From: a virus
Lineage: Duplodnaviria; Heunggongvirae; Uroviricota; Caudoviricetes
IMG/VR virus record: IMGVR_UViG_2711768060_000013
Span: 1-31,542 of that record
DNA length: 31,542 nt
Direction: 5' to 3' (one strand)
Shown: piece by piece, positions 1 through 31,542 of the stretch
How the letters are laid out: every line of letters begins with the position of its first letter
How positions within the stretch are numbered: the first letter of the stretch is position 1
Notes under the pieces: generated by a model
The model's database searches: none
Seen by the model: only the letters and a program-made list of their open reading frames with translations
What the model was told of the DNA's origin: nothing
Translations under genes and position numbers: made by a program

Positions 1-147
1 CTCCTGCCATACCTGCTTCCCCGTTTTATCGCTGTCTGTCGGTGTCGCGGTATAGGGTACATATTCCTCCATATCGTCAAATAATATTTCGCAATTTATC
101 GCCCCGTGTTCAAGGCTGACAGGATTTTTTATATCTGTAATGTTCAT
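1..147 (-). CDS. 5'-partial ORF (49 codons, MNITDIKNPVSLEHGAINCEILFDDMEEYVPYTATPTDSDKTGKQVWQE, runs off window start); possible tail-fibre assembly chaperone or other distal tail gene
   Basis: ATG at 145-147 overlaps the TAA stop of the upstream fibre gene (TAATG on minus strand); frame open to position 1; position after a fibre gene suggests a chaperone but the sequence itself is not recognised. Confidence 0.4.
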   Translation of the reverse strand, partial: MNITDIKNPVSLEHGAINCEILFDDMEEYVPYTATPTDSDKTGKQVWQE

Positions 148-2849: not shown

Positions 2850-3845
2850 TTAGCCGGATACCGTGCGCCATCCGCCATTGATATAAATCTGAGTTTGTTT
2901 GTAATACACGCCGCCGATGTTATCCGCAGAGCTCCTGCCAGTATCCTGAACGTTAATACCTGACAAAATACAACCTGAAGGCGCGCGAAATACCCAGGAA
3001 ATTTCGTTACCTCCGGGATTGTGAAACACTTCGCTGGTATATCTGAAATCACGCACAGCGCCGGAATCGGTGCTGCTGATGGTGATATCGCGGGTACCAT
3101 CAAATGCCGTACCGTTAATTTTGCGTGGGGTCTGTAGTTTGGTGGCGGTTGCTGCGTTGAAGCTGTCTTTTGATGTATACACCTGTGCCCATTCGGACCA
3201 GCTGGCATCTGCAGAATCACGTCTTGAACGGATATAAACCGGGGCATGCGCTCCACTCGTACCACTCCAGCCAATCAGCAGTTCACCTTCGCCTGATGCT
3301 GTCGCGCCTTTCAGGTGCAGAACATTGCCATAAGTGATGGGGTAGCCGTTGTTGTACGCTTCATACATCTGCAGCCCTGCATTGCCCTGTGCTGTGCCGC
3401 TTAATGCCGTCATCCGTCCTTTTGATAAAAGGGTGTCCGGTGACAGGCCAATTGCTTTAATAAATTCGCTGGCTGTGGTTTTCCCGAGAATACCGCGCAC
3501 AAAAGCACTGAGCGGCGTTAATGCCATTGTGTCTTCGCCCGTAAAATACGGGAACGTATTATTCTGACCGGTTAATCCGGCAATAGCTCCGGCTGAACCA
3601 CTGTTCGTAATAAACAGTTTTTTCAGCGCCGTCATAATCTGGTCGGTGGTGTTTTTATCCGGTTTGATATTTGCCTGCCGGAGAATTTCCAGCAGTTCGG
3701 ACTGAATAATATTAAACCAGTCCGGCCCCGGATAGGTGGGCGGAATACCATTCCCGCCTTCGGTGAAATAAAGCGTTGTTTTGCTTAATTCAGCCGCGAC
3801 AGGTGGCATTACCGGCACACCCGTCGGATTATCCACATGAAACAT
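2850..3845 (-). CDS. tail fibre protein (Mu S-like position), 331 aa
   Basis: ORF track; position directly after the baseplate genes; C-terminal ATKLQTPRKINGTAFDGTRDITIS and SWSEWAQVYTSKD motifs shared with Stf-type fibres. Confidence 0.8.
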   Translation of the reverse strand: MFHVDNPTGVPVMPPVAAELSKTTLYFTEGGNGIPPTYPGPDWFNIIQSELLEILRQANIKPDKNTTDQIMTALKKLFITNSGSAGAIAGLTGQNNTFPYFTGEDTMALTPLSAFVRGILGKTTASEFIKAIGLSPDTLLSKGRMTALSGTAQGNAGLQMYEAYNNGYPITYGNVLHLKGATASGEGELLIGWSGTSGAHAPVYIRSRRDSADASWSEWAQVYTSKDSFNAATATKLQTPRKINGTAFDGTRDITISSTDSGAVRDFRYTSEVFHNPGGNEISWVFRAPSGCILSGINVQDTGRSSADNIGGVYYKQTQIYINGGWRTVSG

Positions 3846-5936: not shown

Positions 5937-6469
5937 ACGGGCGGTGATGTATTCTCATTGTCGCCGTCCCTATGAGTGTGTTTGATGAAAGATTTGCCGT
6001 TGATGGTGACATCTTCAGTAAATTCACAGGGACCGACGAATTTCATTTGTTTACCGATAATATTCAGCAATTCGTCGGCGGTGAGATTTACCGTTTTCCC
6101 TGAAACGTTTAATTGTTCTCCTGTGATTTCAATAATTCCGCCTTTCTTTAACGTGATATGTGATTTGCCGTCCTGGTGATACAGCCGGACGTCGCCGGGG
6201 GACAGACCTTTAGGGCGACATCGCTTGTCCTCCACCGCGATGGCAACCAGCCCGTCACGCCGTCCGCCAACGGCCAGCACAATAGCTTCAGAACCTTCCG
6301 GCGGAACGGAAGTAAACCCGTAGTTCTGGAAGCGTTCCACGTCGTCGTCAGTGGCATCTGCCAGCGTCTGGATTTGCAGGTTCTGCCGCTCCAGACTGTC
6401 AGACACCATGCGGACAATGGCACGGTCAACCAGCAGCCGCAGACGGCGGGCAATGGCGTTTAATCCCAT
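5933..6469 (-). CDS. baseplate spike/assembly protein, Mu gp45-like (gpV-like)
   Basis: ORF track, 178 aa, recognised gp45-family sequence, synteny. Confidence 0.8.
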   Translation of the reverse strand: MGLNAIARRLRLLVDRAIVRMVSDSLERQNLQIQTLADATDDDVERFQNYGFTSVPPEGSEAIVLAVGGRRDGLVAIAVEDKRCRPKGLSPGDVRLYHQDGKSHITLKKGGIIEITGEQLNVSGKTVNLTADELLNIIGKQMKFVGPCEFTEDVTINGKSFIKHTHRDGDNENTSPPV

Positions 6470-19540: not shown

Positions 19541-21120
19541 AGTAAACCTCCCTCATTTTTCAGGCCGCGCGTCAGCTTCATCTGGCGGCGCGCGTTGCGT
19601 TCTTCCGGTTTCGCCGGGCGGTTCAGGCGGTGCAGCTCGTAACGGCGGCAGTCTTCTTTACTGGCAAGAAACGCCAGGAAGATGGCATAGGCGCTGTCAC
19701 CGTGACGTTTATGACCATCACTGCCAGTCTTCTCCCTGTCATCAATTCCGGGAGTACCGCGCAGGATGACGATCTGCCCGAGGTCACTAATGACATCTTC
19801 ATGTTTAGGCAGAATCAGCTCGTCATCCTCAAAGGCTGATTTAAATCGGGGCATATTCTCCCGATAGTGCCCGACAGAAGGCATAACCACTTCGACCTCA
19901 TCGCCATAACGTTCAGCAGCCTGTTCAGCCAGGTAGTTGCCGTTCCCACGTCCATCAAGTTTGATACCATCTCTGCGGGGAAGGCGATCACAGATAAAGA
20001 AAAGCGCCTGCTCCTGTTGCTTGTACGGTACGTTTGCAAGTTCGACTAAAAAGGGGACGGTGCGTGTGGTGTCATCGTTAACCGTCATCGGTGCAAAGAC
20101 GGTGAGGTGACCAGATCGGGCAAAGTCTTCTCCCAGACAGTGGCGAAGGTTTTGCGGCAACTTATTCAGTTCGGGGAGTACAACACGCTCAAGCCAGTCC
20201 CGCATATCCAGTGCCCTGATGCCTTCAGGTGTTGCATTGAATTCTGTCGAGCCGGTGAAGCGCAGGACAGGCCCGGAACCTCGCGCCGCTCGTTCACAAA
20301 TGGAACGAGCCAGATAAGTACCTCCGCCGTTCTTCGGCTCGCAGTAGTATTCCTCGCGGGCATCTTCTTCAGTCGCGGTGTCATTCAGCAGATTGTTCAG
20401 CCATTCAGCCTCGGCTGCTGACGACCATGTCTGTCGGGTGACCTGGCAGATTCGCTTATAAAGCCCCTCAGTGATAGCCAGTTCTATATCAATGCGGTGT
20501 ACCGAGTAACGGCGTTTTCCGGCGCGACTTTCAGTTATGAGCGTATTGAAGAGGTTCTCAATGCCGTTATGGGTGGAGATAATCCTGACTTTACTGCCCC
20601 ACATGGTCAGCGCCAGTGCCGCCTTCAGTAACGCGGCAAGGTCGACCTGAAAGGCCGCCTCATCAATAATGACGTTACCCTGCATACCACGCAGGTTGGA
20701 CGGATTAGAGGACAGCGCCTTAATTTTAAAACCGCTGGCAAAGTTAATGACATAAACCAGTATGTCCTTGTCTTCATCTTTGAGAACTTCTTCCCCAATA
20801 TCGGATGCTGCCCAGTCGTAAGCTTTGGCCCACATGGCGCAGGCATCAATAAACTCGCGCGCCATGTCTTTGGTCGTGCCGACATAGAAAGTATCGCAAC
20901 CGCCTGCCTCTCTCGACATTGAGCCATTCAGGGCAGCATCAGCAGCTTCTGCCCAGGTTAATCCAGTACGACGCGACTTTTCGCCGATTTTTATTTGGGC
21001 TGTATCAGCAATCCAGCGGCGCTGGTAGGGCAAAAGTACCTGGTCCTGATCAAACTCACCAGCAAGAATTGCCGCAGCGGATGCGCTGTTCAGTACACTG
21101 TTTTTAACCATATCAACCAT
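19537..21120 (-). CDS. terminase large subunit (Mu gp28-like)
   Basis: ORF track, 527 aa, TAATG overlap with the upstream gene, recognised family. Confidence 0.9.
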   Translation of the reverse strand: MVDMVKNSVLNSASAAAILAGEFDQDQVLLPYQRRWIADTAQIKIGEKSRRTGLTWAEAADAALNGSMSREAGGCDTFYVGTTKDMAREFIDACAMWAKAYDWAASDIGEEVLKDEDKDILVYVINFASGFKIKALSSNPSNLRGMQGNVIIDEAAFQVDLAALLKAALALTMWGSKVRIISTHNGIENLFNTLITESRAGKRRYSVHRIDIELAITEGLYKRICQVTRQTWSSAAEAEWLNNLLNDTATEEDAREEYYCEPKNGGGTYLARSICERAARGSGPVLRFTGSTEFNATPEGIRALDMRDWLERVVLPELNKLPQNLRHCLGEDFARSGHLTVFAPMTVNDDTTRTVPFLVELANVPYKQQEQALFFICDRLPRRDGIKLDGRGNGNYLAEQAAERYGDEVEVVMPSVGHYRENMPRFKSAFEDDELILPKHEDVISDLGQIVILRGTPGIDDREKTGSDGHKRHGDSAYAIFLAFLASKEDCRRYELHRLNRPAKPEERNARRQMKLTRGLKNEGGLL

Positions 21121-21698
21121 TACGCTATACCCAAGATCTGGCGGCGGATATCAGCTGCGGTTTCCGCGGAAAGCCCCGCCTGTTTGGTAATTTTCTCCAG
21201 TTGTGCAGCCGCCTCTTCAGCAAAGGCCTGGCGAATCTCTTTCTCCCGCTTATGGCTGGTCATGGCTGCCGCTTCCAGACGCTGGGCAACCAGCGCCAGT
21301 TGCCCCAGCGCCTTCGGTGCAACGGGCTTGTCGTCTTCTGCCATCGACATGGACGTTTCAAAAGCCAGCGTTTTTACAAACTCCATCAGCAGCTTGCCAA
21401 CGTCTGACGTCGGCGCGGAACCCAGCTTTGCCGCCCAGACTTCGGCCATTTCGCGGGAGGCACGGATTTTTGCCCCGACTTTTTCCATGCGGATGGCATA
21501 GCGGTTTAAGCCCGTCCGGCTTAACTGCATCTCTTCCGGCAGGTTGTGTTCGTCAATCAGGGCGTTGATGGCTTCGCGGATTTCTTCCTGCGTGTGCCGC
21601 TTTTCCCGCAGCATCTGATGCAACTGCTCCCGGATGCTGTCAGGGAGTAAATCCACTTTGGAAAGACGGCCACGGGTGGGGCGTTGTTCATTTTCCAT
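21120..21698 (-). CDS. Mu gp27-like protein (DUF3486), putative terminase small subunit
   Basis: ORF track; start moved to ATG at 21696-21698 with AGGAGGG 6 nt upstream. Confidence 0.7.
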   Translation of the reverse strand: MENEQRPTRGRLSKVDLLPDSIREQLHQMLREKRHTQEEIREAINALIDEHNLPEEMQLSRTGLNRYAIRMEKVGAKIRASREMAEVWAAKLGSAPTSDVGKLLMEFVKTLAFETSMSMAEDDKPVAPKALGQLALVAQRLEAAAMTSHKREKEIRQAFAEEAAAQLEKITKQAGLSAETAADIRRQILGIA

Positions 21699-21835
21699 GT
21701 GTGCCCTCCTGTTGCTCACTACGCTGTAAACTTTCGTATGCAGATTTCAGTGCGCCGCTCTGGATTTCCCGCCATGTCAGGTTGTGCGCCAGACGGCGGA
21801 GTTCATCACGGGACGCTTTACTTATCGGATTCTTT

Positions 21836-22135
21836 TTACGGTTCACGACGGCCCCCGTCTTCAGTTCCCGGTGTTTTCAGACCGGCGTATATTTCTTCGC
21901 GAACGGAGCGGATATCCTTACCCAGCAGCTTCCACAGCCGCGCACATGCCGGTGATGAACGCAGGGCACGTTTCATGGGGGTATCCGGTGCATCCGGGTT
22001 CCAGGGCTTTCCGGTCTGTTGTTCGTATGCACGGACAATGGCGTTTTGCTCAATATCTGCCAGCACAAGGCAGTACGCCAGTTGCCGCACGACGGCCCGT
22101 TCTCCGCGACTTAACGGCTTCAGTTTTCGGGCCAT
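21836..22135 (-). CDS. hypothetical protein (99 aa)
   Basis: ORF track; GAGGGA Shine-Dalgarno; start 2 nt after the upstream stop. Confidence 0.5.
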   Translation of the reverse strand: MARKLKPLSRGERAVVRQLAYCLVLADIEQNAIVRAYEQQTGKPWNPDAPDTPMKRALRSSPACARLWKLLGKDIRSVREEIYAGLKTPGTEDGGRREP

Positions 22136-22137
22136 GC

Positions 22138-22431
22138 TCAGTCCCTCGCACGGGGTTTTTTAACGCCCGGAACGCTGGACAGGCCGTTTGCCACATCCTC
22201 ACCGCTGCCGGTGATTTCAGCCACGTAACAGCCGCCCACATCAGACAGACGAACCAGCCCCTGCTCGCGAAGCCATGCAAGCTGGGTGCGCACCACATCA
22301 CGGGATACCTTATGACCGTAGGCCTGAAGGCAGGTCTGCAACACGGATTCATTCGCGCTGTCGCCACAGTCCAGCAGGGAACGCAGCAACACCAGACGAC
22401 GGTCTTCAGTGAGGATCTCTTTCATCGCCAT
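22138..22431 (-). CDS. hypothetical protein (97 aa), possible winged-helix DNA-binding protein
   Basis: ORF track; TAATG coupling to the upstream gene. Confidence 0.5.
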   Translation of the reverse strand: MAMKEILTEDRRLVLLRSLLDCGDSANESVLQTCLQAYGHKVSRDVVRTQLAWLREQGLVRLSDVGGCYVAEITGSGEDVANGLSSVPGVKKPRARD

Positions 22432-22736
22432 TAATTTTTTTCCTTTAACTCATTCTCTAATAACAAATCGCTGATGCGGGATACCTGGCGGATGGATGGC
22501 CCCAGTTCCTTGATTTCTCCCCTCAGGTTGCTGATATCCAGTTGCAGGCGGTGGAACTCATCACGATCAGGTAGCTGATGCACCTGGCTTTCCATCACCG
22601 ATACACGGGAACGCAACAAATCAAACTCTTCGCGTTTGACGTAGGTCTTCGCCAGAATCAACTGAAGCAGGTTTATTCCTGTCATCAGCAATGCCCACAG
22701 AATGGGCCAGTTGGCTCTGATCATTTCCCAGGACAC
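22431..22736 (-). CDS. membrane-anchored coiled-coil protein (N-terminal TM helix, DUF2730-like)
   Basis: ORF track, 101 aa, hydrophobic N-terminus followed by a heptad-like region. Confidence 0.55.
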   Translation of the reverse strand: MSWEMIRANWPILWALLMTGINLLQLILAKTYVKREEFDLLRSRVSVMESQVHQLPDRDEFHRLQLDISNLRGEIKELGPSIRQVSRISDLLLENELKEKN

Positions 22737-22948
22737 GATTTCCTCCTGTGTTCCCGTATCTGCTGACAGTCAATACAGGTCACCACATCCGGCAGCGCCG
22801 CAAGGCGCTGTGCCGGAATAACGTTCCCGCAGTCATTGCAGAAGCCCCGGCTGTGGGGCGCTTCTTTTGTCCGCGTCTGCCAGGCTTTAACGACGCTCTG
22901 ACGTTCGTTCAGAACCACTTCACTGATGCGGTCGATTTCGTCGGTCAT
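22721..22948 (-). CDS. TraR/DksA-family C4 zinc-finger protein
   Basis: ORF track, 75 aa, CxxC-(N17)-CxxC motif (CNDCG...CIDCQ). Confidence 0.7.
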   Translation of the reverse strand: MTDEIDRISEVVLNERQSVVKAWQTRTKEAPHSRGFCNDCGNVIPAQRLAALPDVVTCIDCQQIREHRRKSCPGK

Positions 22949-23553
22949 TTCGGCCCCGCAGACATTTTGTGACGGCTTGATTTGCTGTAACGGGCAAAAC
23001 CGTCAAGGGTTCTTACGCCGAGATAGCCCAGCGCCGGGGTAAGCAACATCAGCGTGATATCCCAGTCCGGTGACGGCATATGCAGCGAGATACCTTTGGC
23101 ACCGGCAATGGCTCCGGCAATCTGACCGCAGGAGAGCAACAGCACATAGGCCAGACTGCTGTAACAGGAAAGGCGGGCCAGCAGCGGGCGCGTCTGGCGC
23201 ACATAGCTGTCCGTGGCGTTGTCACCATTGCGGATGGTTTCCTGCTGTTCGTGGTGTGCGGCCTGCTGGTCAGCCAGCACCAGCTTCTGCCGTTCCACCT
23301 CCAGCTGTTGCAGCTGAATTTTCAGAGTTTCCAGCTGCATCAGTTGCTCCGGTGACAACATCACCAGCTTTTGTTCCAGAATGCGTTGCTGTTCAGCCAC
23401 CGGCAGGCTTTCCCGGACGCTTTCCACCATACCGGCCACCGAGTCAGCGGCGGCAGATGTGCTACCACCAAACCAGCGCCCGACGGAACGAATCAGCCCC
23501 GGCCCGGCTTTCAGCAGAACAGAGGCGATGCCTGAAAGGGTTAACGGATCCAC
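22945..23553 (-). CDS. putative holin-like membrane protein (N-terminal coiled coil, C-terminal TM segments)
   Basis: ORF track frame; start moved to GTG at 23551-23553 with a perfect GGAGG 7 nt upstream, which removes the 162-nt overlap with the upstream gene. Confidence 0.5.
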   Translation of the reverse strand: MDPLTLSGIASVLLKAGPGLIRSVGRWFGGSTSAAADSVAGMVESVRESLPVAEQQRILEQKLVMLSPEQLMQLETLKIQLQQLEVERQKLVLADQQAAHHEQQETIRNGDNATDSYVRQTRPLLARLSCYSSLAYVLLLSCGQIAGAIAGAKGISLHMPSPDWDITLMLLTPALGYLGVRTLDGFARYSKSSRHKMSAGPK

Positions 23554-23966
23554 GGGAAACCTCCATACAGATAACGCTGAAAACAGAGCAGACCGCCGCA
23601 ACTGCCACCACACAGCCAGAACACCGGATGCACCGGTGACATCATCATCAGCGTGCTGAAGACGCAGCAGAAATATCCCAGCGCCCAGACCACCCATGAC
23701 CACACGATGATGTGGCGACCAAAAGCCCGGTAACGGACCTCAGGCAGCAGGCGAAATGGCACATTCCCGAGGCTTGCGCTGTATGAAAACAACACCACCC
23801 CGGCAAAGGACAACAACATCAACACGAACGATCGCCAGCCACATAACATGCTGATGATGAACATGCAGAGTGTCAGTCCGGCCAGTGGCCATGGCGTTCT
23901 CATCAGTCGGGAACAAATCAGCCAGTCACACAGTTTTAAAATTTTGTTCATTACCTTTTTCCACAT
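23541..23966 (-). CDS. multi-pass membrane protein, Cys-rich; possible lysis-associated protein
   Basis: ORF track frame; start moved to ATG at 23964-23966 (MWKKVMNKIL...); hydrophobic segments throughout. Confidence 0.45.
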   Translation of the reverse strand: MWKKVMNKILKLCDWLICSRLMRTPWPLAGLTLCMFIISMLCGWRSFVLMLLSFAGVVLFSYSASLGNVPFRLLPEVRYRAFGRHIIVWSWVVWALGYFCCVFSTLMMMSPVHPVFWLCGGSCGGLLCFQRYLYGGFPWIR

Positions 23967-24177
23967 TGAATTTTTCCCTGTACTTCTGGCACTGCCAGAA
24001 AATGTCCCGTGTATCCACGGAGTTCCAGCCACGCATGTAGTAGCTGGCGTGTGTGCCGTCATGGCCGGTGTAGTCCACCGGTTTCGGGGGCGGACCTCCG
24101 GCCATGCGGTGTAAAACCTCCTGGCGCAGGCGGTCACGCCGCCCGGCTTTCAGTGAGGCGTCCCAGCCTTTGCCCAT
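23926..24177 (-). CDS. hypothetical protein (83 aa) immediately after the endolysin
   Basis: ORF track; ATG directly downstream of a G8 tract; in the -1 frame relative to the endolysin. Confidence 0.45.
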   Translation of the reverse strand: MGKGWDASLKAGRRDRLRQEVLHRMAGGPPPKPVDYTGHDGTHASYYMRGWNSVDTRDIFWQCQKYREKFNVEKGNEQNFKTV

Positions 24178-24767
24178 ATCCCCCCCCGCGTGGTGGACGG
24201 CGCGTTGTCGATAATTTCCAGACAGGCGTCGGTCAGTTTTTCCATGCGGTTAAACCAGCCGTTCAGGTATTTACCCTGGGCGGGTTTTGACTTGATGATG
24301 TCGGCATAAAAGCGGGAACGACGGACAATGCAGCGGGTCAGCAACCAGTCCGGGGTGGACAGGCTCACGGCCTTACGGGTACACGGGCCGATGATGCCGT
24401 CAGCATCCACATCAGCGGCTTCCTGCAAAATTCTGATGGCTTTTTTAACGCCATGCTGAACCGCCGCATCGAACACAAACATCGCCACGCCATCAGGCCA
24501 CTGGTCACATCCGGCAGGCAGCCAGTAATCACGCAGGTAAATCTGTGCGGCCTGTTCGCGGGTTAAATCTTTGATGCGGGTATCCGGTTTACCGTCACCG
24601 TTGACATCGGTTTTGCCGTCAATCACACCGTCGCGGCGGTCAGAAATGCCGTATTTGGTTTCGCCGCCACGGTCAGTGGGGTCATTGACATAGACGCCTT
24701 CGATATCAGGACGCAGAATGAAATTCAGCGCATGTTCAAAGGCCGGGGAGAATTTTTGATTTTCCAT
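24150..24767 (-). CDS. endolysin, GH108-type N-terminal domain plus PG_binding_3-like domain; no SAR/TM segment
   Basis: ORF track, 205 aa; EGVYVNDPTDRGGETKYGI motif typical of GH108; AGGTG 6 nt upstream of the ATG. Confidence 0.8.
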   Translation of the reverse strand: MENQKFSPAFEHALNFILRPDIEGVYVNDPTDRGGETKYGISDRRDGVIDGKTDVNGDGKPDTRIKDLTREQAAQIYLRDYWLPAGCDQWPDGVAMFVFDAAVQHGVKKAIRILQEAADVDADGIIGPCTRKAVSLSTPDWLLTRCIVRRSRFYADIIKSKPAQGKYLNGWFNRMEKLTDACLEIIDNAPSTTRGGIWAKAGTPH

Positions 24768-24822
24768 AAAAGCACCTGTGAAGCAGATTTAAACGTGGTC
24801 TGCTTCATGGTGCCGGAGGCAT

Positions 24823-24848
24823 AAAAAAAGCCGGATTTACCGGCTTCA
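24823..24848 (-). terminator. intrinsic terminator 8 nt downstream of the mor stop (AAGCCGG-TAAAT-CCGGCTT then T7 on the minus strand); same element as 17047-17072
   Basis: hairpin and U-run read directly from sequence. Confidence 0.6.
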
Positions 24849-24852
24849 TTGA

Positions 24853-25302
24853 TTAAAGGCGTCGTGGCGGACGACGAACGGGGTGAGGCAGGTTCGGGGA
24901 GGGGTAAAACAAATCCGGCTGGTATTTATTACGCTCCAGACGTCGCATCCGTTTGATGGCCTTGTAGACGGTTTTATACGTCACTCCGTAACGCTGAACC
25001 AGTTCAGGAATATTATGGCCGTTAAAATCACGCCAGATACGCATATCCCGGACAAGATTCTCCAGAATATTCCCCCTCGGAACATAAACCTGCATCCCGC
25101 CGATATGGCGACAAATCGCCACAACCAGCTCAAGGGAATGAACAGGGTCTGCGCCAATCCGGGCCAGCTCTTTACGCAGCAGTGCGTTCAGTTCAGAAAG
25201 TAACGCCGGATAAGCGGTGTTTTCCTGGTAATCATGAAGATATTCCAGAACGCTGTCGTCCCGGAGGTCTTCGAATAAATCCTGCTCTTTCATCTGTTTC
25301 AT
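24853..25302 (-). CDS. mor: Mor/C-family transcriptional activator (Mor-like, 149 aa)
   Basis: ORF track; sequence recognised as Mor-like (DLF.DL.DD..L..L......PALL.EL..LLR.EL...G.DP.HSLE.VVAIC.H.GG.QVY.PRG...L.RD.RIW.DFNG.N..EL...YGVT..TVYKAI.RMRRL); follows gemA. Confidence 0.85.
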   Translation of the reverse strand: MKQMKEQDLFEDLRDDSVLEYLHDYQENTAYPALLSELNALLRKELARIGADPVHSLELVVAICRHIGGMQVYVPRGNILENLVRDMRIWRDFNGHNIPELVQRYGVTYKTVYKAIKRMRRLERNKYQPDLFYPSPNLPHPVRRPPRRL

Positions 25303-25847
25303 ACAGCAATTCTCCCGCTGTTTCGTGCGCGGGCATACGCACTGGTCAGTGCATCATAGCCGCGCAGTTCCCGCCCGGATGGGCTTACAGGTAAAGGCAC
25401 ACCATGTCGGGCAAAGGCTTCACGGATGCAGCGCATGTGCCACTGTTTGAGCGTTTCGAGCACAACCTGCAACGATTCCCCGTGACACCAGGCCAGTGTG
25501 GAAACACCCTGACCGCCATTACGTCTGGCCGTCAGGCGCTCAACGTATTTGTCCAGCGCGGCGTCGCTGATATCGGAAACGAAACCATCAAGGAACATCT
25601 GCTGCCAGATTTTGTAAATCTTCTCGCGTGGTGTGACATGCCCCTTAAAGCGACGGCGGGGATGTTTTTTCTGCTTCTTAAAACCGCGCTCTTTCATGGC
25701 ATCGAGCACACGTTCCAGTTGTGCAACGGACAGCTCGCGGCAACTGGTCTTGCCCGTGCACTGCACCAGAAAGGCGCGGTAAGTGTCATCGTCGAGTTGT
25801 AGATCACGACGAGCGACATGAATTAATTTAATAAGCGATGCGCGCAT
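25299..25847 (-). CDS. gemA: GemA-like protein (Mu gp16 family, DUF1018)
   Basis: ORF track; start moved to ATG at 25845-25847 (MRASLIKLIHVARR...) with GGAGA 8 nt upstream; recognised family. Confidence 0.8.
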   Translation of the reverse strand: MRASLIKLIHVARRDLQLDDDTYRAFLVQCTGKTSCRELSVAQLERVLDAMKERGFKKQKKHPRRRFKGHVTPREKIYKIWQQMFLDGFVSDISDAALDKYVERLTARRNGGQGVSTLAWCHGESLQVVLETLKQWHMRCIREAFARHGVPLPVSPSGRELRGYDALTSAYARARNSGRIAV

Positions 25848-25913
25848 GATGCGTATCTCCATTAAAGCGGTGTTGCAGCACCGCCATTACGTTAAACAAA
25901 AGGAATTACTGAA

Positions 25914-26156
25914 ATGTCTGAATCCACCAAAGATAAAAATTATGACTTTGCAGCATTTTCTCTTGCTGGTAATACCCTCATAAAACTCGTTGAAAAGGGC
26001 GTCATTGATATTCGCGATGCCAAAGATGTTATTGACCGAACACGGGCAACCAACAAATTCGGCAGTTCGCTCAAGTGCGATGTCATTGGCTCTCCTGCTG
26101 AGGACTGTATAGATTCTCTTTTTCTGAAACTTTGGGATTCAAAACCGTTGAAATAA
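25914..26156 (+). CDS. opposite-strand small ORF (80 aa) inside the early region; possible moron
   Basis: ORF track; ATG with AAGGA 9 nt upstream; sits in a gap with no minus-strand ORF; AT-rich by eye; 3' end overlaps the minus-strand ORF 26083-26448 by 74 nt. Confidence 0.35.
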   Translation: MSESTKDKNYDFAAFSLAGNTLIKLVEKGVIDIRDAKDVIDRTRATNKFGSSLKCDVIGSPAEDCIDSLFLKLWDSKPLK

Positions 26157-26448
26157 ACAAACAACGCTCATAATCAGCCGTTCTTATAATGGCTAAACCG
26201 TCTACACCAAGCTCACGGCGAACTAATTCGTCATGGGCTTTTTTTTCAAGAAACACAAATTCAGTTTGTAATAATGACAACTCTCGTTTGATAACACTCA
26301 TAATTTCTCCCACCCCCCATTGCTCCTCGATTGCTTTGAACACAATCTCACGCATTCTTAGGGGGACACCCTTTTGCTGACAAAAATCGTCAAATGTCAT
26401 GCCGAAATAATATTCATGATTTTTTTTATTTGTTGTCGTCTTACTCAT
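26083..26448 (-). CDS. hypothetical early protein (121 aa)
   Basis: ORF track; ATGAGTAA start/stop overlap with the upstream gene. Confidence 0.55.
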   Translation of the reverse strand: MSKTTTNKKNHEYYFGMTFDDFCQQKGVPLRMREIVFKAIEEQWGVGEIMSVIKRELSLLQTEFVFLEKKAHDELVRRELGVDGLAIIRTADYERCLFISTVLNPKVSEKENLYSPQQESQ

Positions 26449-26626
26449 TTCTTAATACCTCTTCACAATAAAAGATTTCACCGGGATAACGTTTTTGTAT
26501 GCGCTCCATCACCTGCATACATGCCTGCTCTGTGGGCCAGATTTTTTCCGTTACGGGTATGGCATCGCAGGCATCATTCCCGCAGGTGCTAACCAGCAGG
26601 ACAAAGCCAATTGACTTAATCACCAT
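26441..26626 (-). CDS. small Cys-containing protein with signal-peptide/lipobox-like N-terminus (MVIKSIGFVLLVSTC...)
   Basis: ORF track, 61 aa; hydrophobic N-terminus ending VSTC. Confidence 0.5.
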   Translation of the reverse strand: MVIKSIGFVLLVSTCGNDACDAIPVTEKIWPTEQACMQVMERIQKRYPGEIFYCEEVLRNE

Positions 26627-26852
26627 TCATCTCCATCTGTTCCAGGCGCTGTGCTTCGCGCATACACAGCTGCGCAATCATCATCTGGCGGGTAATGCCT
26701 GCACGAATAAACGAAGCTGCACGACGGAGATTTTTTGCATTCGCCTGTTGAATCAATGCAGGCACTGATGCCAGACATTCTGCGCTGTCTTTAATCAGCG
26801 TTGCAGCTGTTATTTCCGGTGCTTGTTGCTTATTCCTCGTCATCTTCGTCAT
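26616..26852 (-). CDS. hypothetical early protein (78 aa)
   Basis: ORF track, same strand, short overlaps with neighbours. Confidence 0.45.
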   Translation of the reverse strand: MTKMTRNKQQAPEITAATLIKDSAECLASVPALIQQANAKNLRRAASFIRAGITRQMMIAQLCMREAQRLEQMEMNGD

Positions 26853-27084
26853 CCTTTACATTCAGCGTTACAGGAAATTTTTCGAACATGAAAAGGGCAA
26901 GCCTTGCCCCAAGTCTCAGAAGGTTTGCTTCCTTTGAATGTGCAGGGATAACGCATTTCTCACCGTCATTGTCGAAGGTAATATCCGCATCTTTTTTATC
27001 GATAAAAAAACGACATTCCTCCACGCGTGCTTTATGCCATGCACATAAAGAGACAATGCATTCTTTCATTTCCTGATTCGTCAT
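26830..27084 (-). CDS. hypothetical acidic early protein (about 84 aa)
   Basis: ORF track frame; start moved to ATG at 27082-27084 (MTNQEMKEC...) with GGTGA upstream. Confidence 0.5.
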   Translation of the reverse strand: MTNQEMKECIVSLCAWHKARVEECRFFIDKKDADITFDNDGEKCVIPAHSKEANLLRLGARLALFMFEKFPVTLNVKDDEDDEE

Positions 27085-29544: not shown

Positions 29545-31542
29545 TTAAATGGCTTTTTTACGTCTGTTCTGTTCCAGAATATCCAGCGAATGATTCAGAT
29601 ATTCATCACGATCAGTTTCATATTCATCATCGGGTTCCTGGTATTTCACCTGCACCGTGTTACCGGAAGGCCGGAAAATACCAACAACCCTTGATTCTGG
29701 CGCTGCTGGTTCGGCTATCTGCGGCAGCAGTTCAGCAACTTCCAGCGCGTCCATTTGCTTCTGCGCCTTAATGGCTGCTTTAGTTGCAGATTTCAGTTGT
29801 TTCTGGCGGCGGCGATATTCGCGGCCTGCCGCAGCATCATTAAATGCAACAGGTGCCAGACATTCCGCTTCACAGATAAACCGACCGTCCAGGGTGTAAC
29901 AATAAACCGTGCTGTGTAACTGCTGTGGATCAAACCTGACCACAACTTTTTTCACATTGGCATTCATTAACGCCATGTTGTAATAAACGTTTTTCGCGCC
30001 TTTAAGGGAGCCGCCAACTTTAAGCGTAAACTCGCCTTTGCGTGAAACGTTCACCGCCTCGGCAGGCAGTAACAGCATCCGTTTTTGTTCTTCGGTTGGC
30101 TTACGCACAATCGTTCTGGCGTATTCACGCTCGAAAACATCATCAAACGAGAGTTTGCCCCCGCACATTTCTGTTTCACGGCCTGTTCTGGCATTGAACA
30201 TCGCCACACCTTCGGCAAGGGTTTTCAGAAACAGCTCTGCATCAACAGCGCGGTCGCCATAGTTATCAGGTTTTGCCTGCGGATTTGGCCCCGTATATGC
30301 ACCAGCCAGTGCCGGATGCTTATCAACGTATTCCTCAAGCCCACCAACACCGAAAGCACGTTCAACAGGTTTTGCCTGGCCCCAGCCTTTACCGGCAACA
30401 ACGCTTGTCCAGTGCATTTTCGCGCCCATCAGTAAAAACAGCCCTTTTGGATCGTCCTCTTTTACCTTAAAGCGGTAGCGATTGGGCGCGCCTCCCGTCA
30501 GCCATTTATTCGCAGCACCACGGGTGTTATCAATGGTGATGTGAAAATCCTCCGGGATACCGTAGCGAGTCACAACATCCATGAACGAGAGGCGAATTGA
30601 ATCGATGTTCTCACTGACATCGCAGCGCCAGCCCAAAATTTTTCGGGTTTTCACATCCTGCCAGAACCATGTTTTCGGGCGGATCACATCACCGTTAAAC
30701 CAGCGTACAAAGACGTTATGCAGATAACCGTCGCCGTTGATCCACTGCATGGCGTCCAGGTGTTCCACAGTTCGCTGCTGTGCCGGTATCAGATGCATCA
30801 GAGCATGTTCACCTTCACGGCAGGCAACAACCATTGCCTCGTCCAGTTGCTGAATCCGGCGAAAGGCCGTGGCACGGGAGGGAATACTCCAGCCATGCTC
30901 GCGGGCTGCCAGTTCCAGACGCTCATAACATTTGCGAAAGGCGGGTTTTTCCGGTCGCAGATAATCTGCAATCAGAAACTGCCAGGCATCCTCGTCAAAT
31001 TCACTTTTGTGAATGTTGCGACGGGATGCACCACGTCCATCAACAAGCGCAGCCGCCCAGTCAGGCTTCGCAAACTTCTGTACCTGGTAATATTTGTCTC
31101 GCAAAGTGGATGCGCTGACCTGGTAATGTCCTGCAACGGTCGCAAATGCCGTTTTTGTTGAAATCCCCTGGTTCAGCATTTCGTCTGCGGCCTGAACCGC
31201 AGGCAACCATTTTTCAGCAAGTTTGCGCTGGGAATCGCTGGCTTTATCCCATTTGCTCCACAGTGCCTCGCGATCGTAATCGTGGGCTTCCAGCGTGGGG
31301 CGGGCGATTTCAAAATACCCCTGGCTTGTTTCTATTTGCTCAGATTTTAATAACAACTCAGCACGTGCTGCCGCTGGTAGAACTGATATATGAAATTCCA
31401 AAGCCTTTGAACCCGTACGCTTGCGACGTAGTTCTGGATGATTGGCTGCAAGCTTTTCAAGATTGCGGCGAATACTCACCTCATGTTTAGGAAAGCATGA
31501 CATTCCTACGCATTCTTGCGCTGTTACCCAATGGGTTAACAT
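29545..31542 (-). CDS. A: DDE transposase A (MuA), 665 codons; ATG at 31540-31542 is at the window edge so the true start may lie beyond the window
   Basis: ORF track; from about residue 77 onward the sequence is recognised as essentially MuA; the first ~75 residues differ from my recollection of Mu. Confidence 0.95.

What the first reader, a model, noticed from the sequence alone, without database searches (positions are those of the whole stretch)
24853..25302. Only one Mor/C-family activator is present; no C gene between mor and the lysis genes
In Mu, as I recall it, Mor activates the middle promoter for C, and C activates the four late promoters, with C encoded between mor and lys. Here the Mor-like gene is followed by a terminator and then the endolysin. 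No second Mor/C-family ORF is recognisable in the window. The Mor-like protein has a C-terminal extension (149 aa, against about 129 in Mu). The cascade may be shortened to one activator acting directly on late promoters.
Basis: partly seen in the sequence, partly recalled or inferred. Interest (0 to 1): 0.5.

Follow-up and report, generated by a model that had tools for sequence, protein, structure and literature searches.

The report
Mu-like prophage with one late activator
This E. coli Mu-like prophage has only the Mor activator and no C gene, and Mor-type binding sites sit in front of its lysis and head genes, so one activator probably does both jobs; this layout is normal for Mu relatives and has been noted before.

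Summary
ORF 24853-25302 (minus strand) is a true Mor-family protein: Pfam Mor 8.8e-30, 62% identical to Mu Mor, 32% to Mu C. A 124-sequence Mor/C profile run on every six-frame ORF of 20 aa or more finds Mor and C in Mu. It finds only this one gene in the window, in the 8 kb beyond its right end, and in a full-length relative.

The "terminator" after mor corresponds to Mu's middle promoter Pm. It carries the 16-bp Mor-binding element (AATGAAGCCGGTAAAT, 13/16 identical to Mu's). A second copy (AGTGAAGCCGGTAAAT, 14/16) lies upstream of the head protease gene I. There it occupies the position, to within 1 bp, of the C box in Mu's late promoter P_I, whose core is otherwise conserved.

Box, 22-23 bp spacing and a CAnAyT -10 recur at both positions in four diverged single-activator relatives. 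So one Mor probably drives the lysis and head operons directly. This is inferred, not shown.

The C-terminal extension contains QPDLF, identical to MuC's functional clamp-binding motif.

The layout is not rare. Only Mu's own genus has two activators, and mor-lys adjacency without C was published in 2015. Interest is modest.

The parts
24853..25302 (-). mor-like gene, the only Mor/C-family gene of the prophage (149 aa)
   Evidence: Pfam Mor 8.8e-30. 62% identical to Mu Mor and 32% to Mu C. PDB 1rr7 at 1.6e-51. Sole hit of the family HMM. The recognition helix VTYKTVYKAIKRMRRL is Mor-type, not C-type.
24907..24921 (-). codons for QPDLF (residues 128-132), a putative C-terminal beta-clamp-binding motif
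   Evidence: Identical to the C-terminal motif of MuC shown to be needed for clamp binding and late transcription; Mu Mor has QPSLL (PMC12867686; alignment). QxxLF is present in 54/83 close and 82/121 diverse homologues.
24856..24906 (-). codons for the 17-residue Pro/Arg-rich C-terminal tail (YPSPNLPHPVRRPPRRL)
   Evidence: Constant length in the full-length E. coli and Salmonella variants (one listed protein is a partial fragment), but variable sequence. Absent from Mu Mor and from relatives of 128-136 aa.
24835..24850 (-). Mor box S1 (AATGAAGCCGGTAAAT), predicted -51..-36 of the lysis-operon promoter
   Evidence: 13/16 identical to the Mu Pm Mor-binding element AGTAAAGCCGGTTAAT, with the same 5+6+5 layout and an identical AGCCGG spacer.
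24821..24847 (-). hairpin GAAGCCGG-TAAAT-CCGGCTTT plus T7 run; terminator-like and overlapping the Mor box, as at Mu Pm
   Evidence: Terminator scan. The Mu counterpart is annotated both as a predicted terminator and as part of Pm.
24807..24812 (-). predicted -10 hexamer CACCAT of the lysis-operon promoter (predicted start near 24799)
   Evidence: In register with the Mu Pm -10 TATCCT. The same register holds CAAAAT or CACACT in relatives. The Mu register was fixed from permanganate and mutant positions.
24150..24767 (-). endolysin, first gene downstream of the Pm-like promoter
   Evidence: Pfam Glyco_hydro_108 2.4e-24 and PG_binding_3 2.7e-16.
23926..24177 (-). homologue of Mu gp18, the first gene of Mu's middle operon, here placed after lys
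   Evidence: 69% identical to Mu gp18 by tblastn, 4e-32. Pfam Phage_Mu_gp18 in identical relatives.
17060..17075 (-). Mor box S2 (AGTGAAGCCGGTAAAT), predicted -51..-36 of the head-operon (gene I) promoter
   Evidence: 14/16 identical to the Mu Mor site. 26 nt are identical to S1, and the 19-mer occurs twice against 0.01 expected. It lies, to within 1 bp, where Mu P_I has its C box in a gap-free alignment.
17032..17037 (-). predicted -10 hexamer CATACT of the gene I promoter (predicted start near 17024)
   Evidence: The core CCTTCCGCATACTGAC is 14/16 identical to the Mu P_I core CCTCCCGCAAACTGAC, which contains the P_I -10 CAAACT.
16036..16998 (-). head protease gene I, first gene downstream of S2
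   Evidence: Pfam Mu-like_Pro_N in identical relatives. Annotated as phage protease in the full-length relative.
25299..25862 (-). gemA homologue, immediately upstream of and overlapping mor
   Evidence: Pfam GemA 9.2e-33. 80% identical to Mu GemA.

Best explanation
The window is a Mu-like prophage of E. coli, with genes on the minus strand, whose lytic programme runs on one Mor/C-family activator.

Mor is made at the end of the early operon, after gemA. It is predicted to bind a 16-bp element (A-R-T-G-A AGCCGG T-A-A-A-T) centred about 43.5 bp upstream of two start sites that lack a -35 hexamer.

- The first site sits directly after mor. It is the counterpart of Mu's middle promoter Pm. It now drives a fused 'middle + lysis' operon running from the GH108 endolysin, gp18 and gp19-like genes on to the packaging and head genes.
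- The second site sits in the F-I gap and drives the protease gene and probably the remaining head and tail genes. At this second promoter the core (-10 and flanks) is orthologous to Mu's C-dependent P_I, but the C box has been replaced, to within 1 bp of the same position, by a Mor box.

The hairpin plus T-run that overlaps the first box probably also stops early transcripts, as at Mu Pm.

The QPDLF motif near the C-terminus may let this Mor use the beta sliding clamp, as MuC does. That would tie late expression to replication without a second activator.

Shown here: gene content, the sequence elements, their positions and their conservation. Inferred: binding, activation, start sites and clamp use.
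For: One activator only: (the Mu control finds both Mor and C).

Mor-type DNA-reading residues.

The Mu Mor site is defined experimentally as a 16-bp element, 5-bp inverted repeats around a G/C-rich hexamer, centred at -43.5 (PMC4390567; PMC4287176). I placed it on the Mu sequence as AGTAAAGCCGGTTAAT. The basis was the permanganate-sensitive positions -12, -4, -1, +1, +3, +4 and the published bases -57G, -56T and -55 to -53 AAA, all of which fit only +1 = 9224.

The window has two copies, with 2 and 3 mismatches to that element. Three matches were found against 0.10 expected, and the 19-mer core is exact twice against 0.01 expected. Mu itself has one copy; beyond these copies the closest match has 3 mismatches in the window and 2 in Mu.

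The -10 hexamers are in register with the Mu Pm -10.

A gap-free alignment of the F-I gap with Mu's G-I gap puts the Mor box, to within 1 bp, where the C box lies, next to a 14/16-identical core.

Four diverged relatives (Mor 64-75% identical; E. coli, an enterobacterial metagenome contig, Yersinia, Klebsiella phage Kp4866-3) each have one activator and the same box, spacing and -10 at the same two places. At two I sites the 3' arm of the hairpin is not conserved but the box is.

A distant single-activator Pasteurella phage likewise has one shared dyad upstream of both lys and I.

Mor and C are strictly promoter-specific in Mu (PMC4287176), so the type of box matters.
Against: There are no expression or binding data.

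The lysis-operon -10 (CACCAT) is weak, at 3/6.

Only two boxes were found. Mu has four C-dependent promoters, and no box was found for the baseplate and tail genes.

The com-mom upstream region of a full-length relative has neither a Mor box nor a clear C box.

The half-sites differ from Mu's at two positions that pair with each other, and they are less symmetric.

The 26-nt identity of the two copies could partly reflect recent gene conversion rather than selection in this lineage. Diverged relatives argue against that as the whole story.
Confidence: 0.7

Rival explanations
1. The two identical hairpin-plus-T-run elements are only intrinsic terminators marking operon ends. Late genes are then expressed by read-through or from ordinary promoters, and Mor has some other target.
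For: Both elements pass a terminator scan. Each lies at the end of a gene block. Mu's counterpart is also annotated as a predicted terminator.
Against: The conserved part is the 5' arm plus loop, which is the Mor element, and not the stem. At the I site of the Yersinia prophage and of Kp4866-3 the 3' arm and the T-run are lost while the box, spacing and -10 remain. The element matches an experimentally mapped Mor site at 13-14 of 16 positions. No sigma-70-like promoter was found in 21000-26500 on the coding strand apart from one far upstream.
Confidence: 0.1
2. A protein unrelated to Mor/C has taken over C's role. Candidates are the TraR/DksA-type zinc-finger protein (22721-22948), the gp26-like winged-helix protein (22138-22431) or an unannotated small ORF. 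The cascade would then still have two steps.
For: A DksA/TraR zinc finger (Pfam 1.2e-11) with no Mu homologue in the tblastn comparison is conserved in all relatives. It lies in the first Mor-box operon, so it would be made before the head genes. No box was found for tail genes or mom.
Against: The I promoter carries a Mor box, not a new motif. gp26 is also present in Mu, where it is not the late activator (and established knowledge that C is required). No other repeated motif was seen in the gaps.
Confidence: 0.12
3. The prophage is a defective remnant that lost C and Plys by deletion and can no longer express late genes.
For: It is a prophage in a draft assembly, not an isolated phage. The region between mor and gp18 differs from Mu.
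Against: All late genes are intact ORFs. The same architecture is found with the identical Mor in 145 collection blocks and in 65 of 5426 complete E. coli genomes. It also occurs in other genera, in a record deposited as a phage genome (Kp4866-3, unverified and unannotated) and in induced Pasteurellaceae phages (PMC4553209). The promoter boxes have co-evolved with the gene loss.
Confidence: 0.05

Closest known systems
Bacteriophage Mu Mor and its middle promoter Pm (Muvirus)
   Same: The position after gemA with overlapping stop and start. 62% identity and the same beta-linker and recognition helix. The 16-bp element with its AGCCGG spacer, embedded in a hairpin plus T-run right after mor, with a -10 22 bp downstream. 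gp18 lies in the operon it drives.
   Different: In Mu, Pm drives gp18-gp19-gp20-C, and C then activates Plys, P_I, P_P and Pmom. Here there is no C. An endolysin of another type (GH108, not the SAR endolysin) comes first after the promoter. A second Mor box stands at the I promoter. The protein has QPDLF plus a 17-aa tail where Mu Mor ends in QPSLL.
Bacteriophage Mu C and its late promoter P_I
   Same: The I-promoter core is orthologous (14/16 identical, including the -10). The activator site is at the same distance, within 1 bp. The window protein shares C's C-terminal QPDLF clamp-binding motif.
   Different: The site is Mor-type (AGTGA AGCCGG TAAAT), not the C consensus TTAT-N5-6-ATAA with CATAACCCC. 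The protein is only 32% identical to C, and its recognition helix is Mor-like.
C-less Mu-like phages of Pasteurellaceae (Mannheimia 3927AP2 and phiMhaMu2, Haemophilus SuMu; Niu et al. 2015, PMC4553209)
   Same: lys (GH108 + PG_binding_3) immediately downstream of mor, with no C gene. [quoted passage not shown]
   Different: Those are distant relatives, and the paper reports no typical com-mom module for 3927AP2. A full-length relative of the window does have com-mom. The paper leaves the late activator open; here Mor boxes are identified at lys and I.
Other single-activator Mu-like phages (BcepMu, Vibrio martha 12B12, Shewanella MuM16, Pasteurella AFS-2018a, Klebsiella Kp4866-3)
   Same: One Mor/C-family gene per genome. 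In AFS-2018a and Kp4866-3 one shared box stands upstream of both lys and I.
   Different: Except for Kp4866-3 they are far more diverged from Mu. The window element is close enough to Mu (Gam 93%, GemA 80%) for promoter-by-promoter comparison.

Membership tests
[quoted passage not shown] | Match to the family profile above the curated threshold | tested here: met
   103.3 bits against a cut-off of 24.9, E 8.8e-30. PHROG 532 at 1.8e-40. Own 124-sequence HMM at 1.5e-43.
[quoted passage not shown] | Small protein (about 100-150 aa) with an acidic N-terminal half, a beta-strand linker with invariant G-G-x-x-x-Y-x-P-x-G, and a basic C-terminal helix-turn-helix | tested here: met
   149 aa. G68, G69, Y73, P75 and G77 are invariant in the alignment with Mor and C, matching the invariant residues listed in PMC2582627. 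HTH_28 and HTH_23 match at residues 94-121.
[quoted passage not shown] | Activates sigma-70 promoters that lack a -35 hexamer, from a dyad element centred at -43.5 | not testable with these tools
   Two candidate promoters with this geometry were found. Activation needs an experiment.
[quoted passage not shown] | Terminal beta-clamp-binding motifs (N-terminal Qx[DE][LM]F, C-terminal QPDLF; PMC12867686) | tested here: inconclusive
   The C-terminal QPDLF is exact (residues 128-132). The N-terminus has EQDLF, which is only the DLF part, as in Mu Mor. Binding was not tested.
Orthologue of Mu Mor (middle operon regulator) | Closer to Mor than to C; located directly after gemA; Mor-type recognition helix | tested here: met
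   62% against 32% identity. 1rr7 at 1.6e-51 against 9l0x at 4.7e-14. Overlaps the gemA stop. Helix alignment.
Orthologue of Mu Mor (middle operon regulator) | Its target operon encodes the late activator C | tested here: not met
   There is no C anywhere in the prophage or its flanks. The operon after the box starts with the endolysin.
Mu-type three-phase cascade (Mor then C then four late promoters) | Two paralogous activators with separate box types | tested here: not met
   One activator. Both promoters identified carry the Mor-type box, and no CATAACCCC-type box occurs above chance (3 against 1.8 expected).
C-less Mu-like phages (as described in PMC4553209) | The late gene lys lies immediately downstream of mor, with no C | tested here: met
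   85-nt gap between the mor stop and the lys start. The lys domains are the same as in that paper's table.

The most novel reading that the evidence does not exclude
This close relative of Mu is a natural rewiring experiment. The same core promoter (P_I) carries a Mor box here and a C box in Mu. Mu's middle promoter here drives the lysis genes directly. The single Mor keeps the C-type QPDLF clamp-binding motif that Mu Mor has lost.

If this Mor activates both promoters and needs the beta clamp, then the three-tier Mu cascade arose (or collapsed) by insertion (or loss) of a C cassette plus operator swaps at conserved core promoters. In that case the coupling of late transcription to replication would be an ancestral property of the single activator, not of C alone.
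Probability: 0.4. Interest if true: 0.5.

Novelty: new member of a known kind. Interest (0 to 1): 0.33.

Why it matters
Mu is the textbook case of a three-step phage transcription cascade, but the comparison here shows that the two-activator version is confined to Mu's own genus.

This prophage is close enough to Mu to line up individual promoters. It shows concretely what a one-activator version looks like: the middle promoter is fused to the lysis operon, and a Mor box stands where Mu has a C box. That gives simple, testable constructs for two questions. One is how activator specificity and promoter boxes co-evolve. The other is whether clamp dependence, recently shown for MuC, belongs to single Mor-type activators as well.

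For genome annotation it also means that the lack of a C gene in a Mu-like prophage is not a sign of decay.

Tried and rejected
1. Megablast of 21000-27000 against phage records found only one short hit. The protein-level search was needed.

2. I first took the Mor site to be the whole hairpin centred on its loop. That put the box 7 bp too close to the -10 and seemed to conflict with the published -43.5. The conflict was resolved by anchoring the Mu numbering on published permanganate and mutant positions. The site is the 5' arm plus loop.

3. The 1996 promoter-mutation paper (PMID 8602357, PMC145667) is not held.

4. A third-box candidate at 6086-6101 (3 mismatches, followed by TATTAT at the right distance, conserved in Kp4866-3) lies inside the gp45 gene. 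Its conservation is explained by the conserved peptide GKTVN...IIGKQ, so it is not claimed.

5. Other near-matches are inside coding sequence without T-run or context and were treated as chance: 3567-3581, 22109-22124 and 25199-25214.

6. C-box-like sequences (CCATAACCCC with 1 mismatch) occur at chance level.

7. The accessory ORFs between mor and lys in relatives were checked as possible divergent C genes. They have hydrophobic, signal-peptide-like or membrane-like N-termini, give no HMM hit, and are absent from the window.

8. Two literature searches for an explicit statement on single Mor/C activators failed: one was rejected on term syntax and one returned nothing. A later search led to the explicit statement in PMC4553209.

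Full report
**What the window is.** All phage genes lie on the minus strand in Mu order: transposase A (29545-31542), B, kil, gam, gemA, mor, then lysis, packaging, head and tail genes.
- The window is the first 31,542 bases of contig CXYG01000018.1 of assembly GCA_001269325.1. Its left end is the contig end, and its right end is the start codon of A.
- Beyond A lie ner, the repressor gene and E. coli genes.
- The element is close to Mu in the early region: Gam 93%, GemA 80% and Kil 86% identity.

**The observation.** ORF 24853-25302 encodes a 149-aa protein.
- It matches Pfam Mor (8.8e-30) and PHROG 532.
- Its closest solved structure is Mu Mor, 1rr7 at 1.6e-51, against 4.7e-14 for C.
- It is 62% identical to Mu Mor and 32% to Mu C.
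- It is followed by a hairpin with a T7 run and, 85 nt after its stop, by a GH108 + PG_binding_3 endolysin.

**Search for a second family member.**
- tblastn with Mor, C and the window protein gave nothing else below E = 0.5.
- I then built a profile from 121 diverse family representatives plus Mu Mor, Mu C and the window protein. I ran it without filters on every stop-to-stop ORF of at least 20 aa in six frames.
- In Mu, the positive control, it finds Mor (6.6e-40) and C (3e-42).
- It finds one hit only, with the next best E above 1, in the window, in six loci carrying the identical Mor, in a complete 96%-identical prophage in E. coli STEC383 including both ends and host flanks, and in the 8 kb beyond the window on the source contig.

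The left flank is not assembled in this genome and was checked only in the relative.

**The 'terminator' is the counterpart of Mu's middle promoter.** The sequence after mor (GAAGCCGGTAAATCCGGCTTTTTTTA) is almost the same as the sequence after Mu mor (AAAGCCGGTTAATCCGGCTTTTTTTA). In the Mu record that sequence is annotated both as a predicted terminator and as part of Pm.

Published work defines the Mor site as a 16-bp element centred at -43.5: two 5-bp inverted repeats around a G/C-rich hexamer, spanning -51 to -36 (PMC4390567; PMC4287176). To place it on the sequence I used two published anchors:
- the permanganate-sensitive bottom-strand T residues at -12, -4, -1, +1, +3 and +4;
- the published identities -57G, -56T and A at -55 to -53.

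Only one register fits all of them: +1 at Mu 9224, -10 TATCCT, and Mor site AGTAA-AGCCGG-TTAAT. The site is therefore the 5' arm and loop of the hairpin.

The window has AATGA-AGCCGG-TAAAT at 24835-24850, which is 13/16 identical. The hexamer CACCAT stands where Pm has TATCCT.

**A second Mor box in front of the head genes.** The 19-mer core of the element occurs exactly twice in the window, against 0.01 expected.
- The second copy is at 17053-17071, in the gap between the minor head protein gene and the protease gene I. That is where Mu has its C-dependent promoter P_I.
- The 16-bp element there (AGTGAAGCCGGTAAAT, 17060-17075) is 14/16 identical to Mu's Mor site.
- With Mu's own 16-mer and up to 3 mismatches, the window gives 3 matches against 0.10 expected. 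Two of them are these sites.
- Mu itself has one such site; beyond these copies the closest match has 3 mismatches in the window and 2 in Mu.

The F-I gap aligns with Mu's G-I gap. The core CCTTCCGCATACTGAC is 14/16 identical to Mu P_I's CCTCCCGCAAACTGAC, which contains the P_I -10. In the gap-free stretch upstream of it, the window's Mor box lies within 1 bp of where Mu has its C box. In Mu, Mor does not activate late promoters and C does not activate Pm (PMC4287176), so which box is present should decide which protein acts.

**Comparative support.** Four diverged relatives each have a single family member and the same two elements at the same two places. They are an E. coli prophage with a 133-aa Mor, an enterobacterial metagenome contig, a Yersinia enterocolitica prophage, and Klebsiella phage Kp4866-3; their Mor is 64-75% identical to the window's.
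- Aligned on the box, all ten sites keep the pattern A-R-K-R-A-A-R-S-C-G-G-T-W-A-A-T, a spacer of 22-23 bp of varying sequence, and a -10 of the form CAnAyT.
- At the I site of the Yersinia prophage and of Kp4866-3, the 3' arm of the hairpin and the T-run are gone but the box and the -10 remain. What is conserved is therefore the Mor element, not the terminator.
- In three relatives an extra gene lies between mor and the box. It encodes a protein with a hydrophobic N-terminus, signal-peptide-like or membrane-like. The box stays next to lys.
- A distant single-activator phage, Pasteurella AFS-2018a, also has one shared dyad (CTTTAAAsCACTTTAAAATC) followed at equal distance by TATACT or TATTCT upstream of both its lysis gene and its protease gene.

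**Gene order.** The gene after the endolysin is a homologue of Mu gp18 (69% identical), the first gene of Mu's middle operon. Mu reads mor - Pm - gp18 - gp19 - gp20 - C - Plys - lys. This element reads mor - Pm-like promoter - lys - gp18 - gp19-like - further lysis genes - gp25, gp26, gp27. The middle and lysis operons are in effect one.

**The C-terminal extension.** The family core ends at RMRRLERNKY.
- The window protein continues QPDLF-YPSPNLPHPVRRPPRRL. Mu Mor ends QPSLL, and Mu C ends QPDLFSPETPK.
- A 2026 study showed that MuC binds the beta sliding clamp through an N-terminal QHDLF and a C-terminal QPDLF. Both motifs are needed for clamp interaction; mutating them abrogated MuC-dependent transcription in vivo and reduced plaque yield. 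Mu Mor has only a partial N-terminal motif, and QPDLF is the family's C-terminal consensus (PMC12867686).
- The window Mor has the exact C-terminal motif and a Mor-like partial N-terminal one (EQDLF).
- QxxLF occurs near the C-terminus in 54 of 83 close and 82 of 121 diverse homologues.
- The 17 residues after it keep their length but vary in sequence among the full-length E. coli and Salmonella variants. I read them as a flexible tail of unknown value.
- Clamp use by this protein is a hypothesis only.

**How unusual is it?** Not very.
- Among phage records, only the 14 from Mu's own genus have two family loci: Mu, D108, SfMu, the Yersinia vB_YpM phages, PhiR68_1 and Mu_3F6. All other matching records have one.
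- Niu et al. [quoted passage not shown] They left the late activator open (PMC4553209).
- The same prophage type is found in 65 of 5426 complete E. coli genomes.
- The part I did not find in the papers I read is the promoter-level picture: Mor boxes at lys and I, and the box swap at an orthologous core promoter.

**What remains open.**
- Only two boxes were found, whereas Mu has four C-dependent promoters.
- From gene I to the tail fibre genes there are no strong terminators on the coding strand, so one long operon is possible but unproven.
- In the full-length relative, the region upstream of com-mom is homologous to Mu's Pmom region, including the GATC cluster, but carries neither box type clearly.
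- Binding, start sites and activation are all inferred.

**Verdict.** The element is a typical single-activator Mu-like prophage, which is a known kind, and it is useful mainly because it is close enough to Mu for direct promoter comparison.

Noticed in passing
window 24768-24806 and 16999-17031 (minus strand); also L010, L011, L015 and Mu Pm and P_I: Every predicted Mor-dependent promoter, and Mu Pm and P_I, has an inverted repeat of 6-10 bp arms that begins right after the -10 hexamer and straddles the predicted start site. An example is GAAGCAGA...TCTGCTTC before lys. The sequences differ between promoters but the feature recurs. Folding energies are about 1-4.5 SD (mostly about 2) below shuffles. 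Its 5' arm would mostly lie upstream of +1, so it may act in DNA or only in read-through RNA. Unexplained.
   Followed up: partly
window about 17080-17160 (minus strand): The gap between the minor head protein gene and gene I aligns with Mu's G-I gap, which holds Mu's strong gyrase site. Repeated GTTTTTGAAG / TTTTGAAGGGG motifs stand opposite Mu's ATTTTTTAAAA / ATTTTTAAACC. A gyrase site may be conserved here.
   Followed up: no
L008 9893-10015 (complete relative in E. coli STEC383; outside the window): The com-mom module is present in a C-less prophage. Its upstream region is homologous to Mu's Pmom control region, including the GATC cluster. Where Mu has its C box it reads TTGTGATTAAATACCCCC, which is neither a clear C box nor a Mor box. 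How mom would be switched on is open.
   Followed up: partly
window 6086-6101 (minus strand), inside the gp45-like gene: AGGGAAAACGGTAAAT (3 mismatches to the Mor box) is followed 23 bp later by TATTAT. A similar pair occurs at the same place in Klebsiella phage Kp4866-3. Conservation can be explained by the encoded peptide (GKTVN...IIGKQ), so it is only a weak candidate for an internal tail promoter.
   Followed up: partly
window 1-146: The window starts at the end of an assembly contig, 146 nt after the stop of a 723-aa tail fibre gene. The break falls where relatives carry further tail fibre genes, a DUF4376 gene, and com-mom, so the prophage's right end is missing from this contig.
   Followed up: yes
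window 21688-21846 and 21836-22135 (minus strand): The 52-aa ORF weakly matches the N-terminal 39 residues of the same PHROG (8988, unknown function) as the neighbouring 99-aa ORF. This suggests a partial tandem duplication. Neither has a Mu homologue.
   Followed up: no
window 25914-26156 (plus strand): An 80-aa ORF on the opposite strand sits in the gap upstream of gemA. It is called as a gene on the source contig, and a different opposite-strand gene sits there in the STEC383 relative. It looks like a variable cargo slot in the early region.
   Followed up: no
L011 10398-10721, L013 10399-10878, L015 10409-10900 (relatives): Relatives carry unrelated genes between mor and the Mor box, encoding proteins with hydrophobic, signal-peptide-like or membrane-like N-termini. 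The window has none there, and its Mor instead has the 17-aa tail. The spot looks like an insertion hot-spot for accessory genes at the end of the early operon.
   Followed up: partly
window 22721-24767 (minus strand): The lysis cassette differs from Mu's. It has a GH108 endolysin with a peptidoglycan-binding domain instead of the SAR endolysin. It also has two unknown proteins, of which the 252-aa ORF 22945-23703 has a weak Pfam GTA_holin_3TM match, and a DksA/TraR-type zinc-finger protein with no Mu homologue in the tblastn comparison. The gp25 (DUF2730) homologue is kept.
   Followed up: partly
window 25199-25214 (plus strand, antisense inside mor): AGTAACGCCGGATAAG matches the Mu Mor site with 3 mismatches and is conserved in the STEC383 relative. 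It is probably chance, or a by-product of coding conservation.
   Followed up: no
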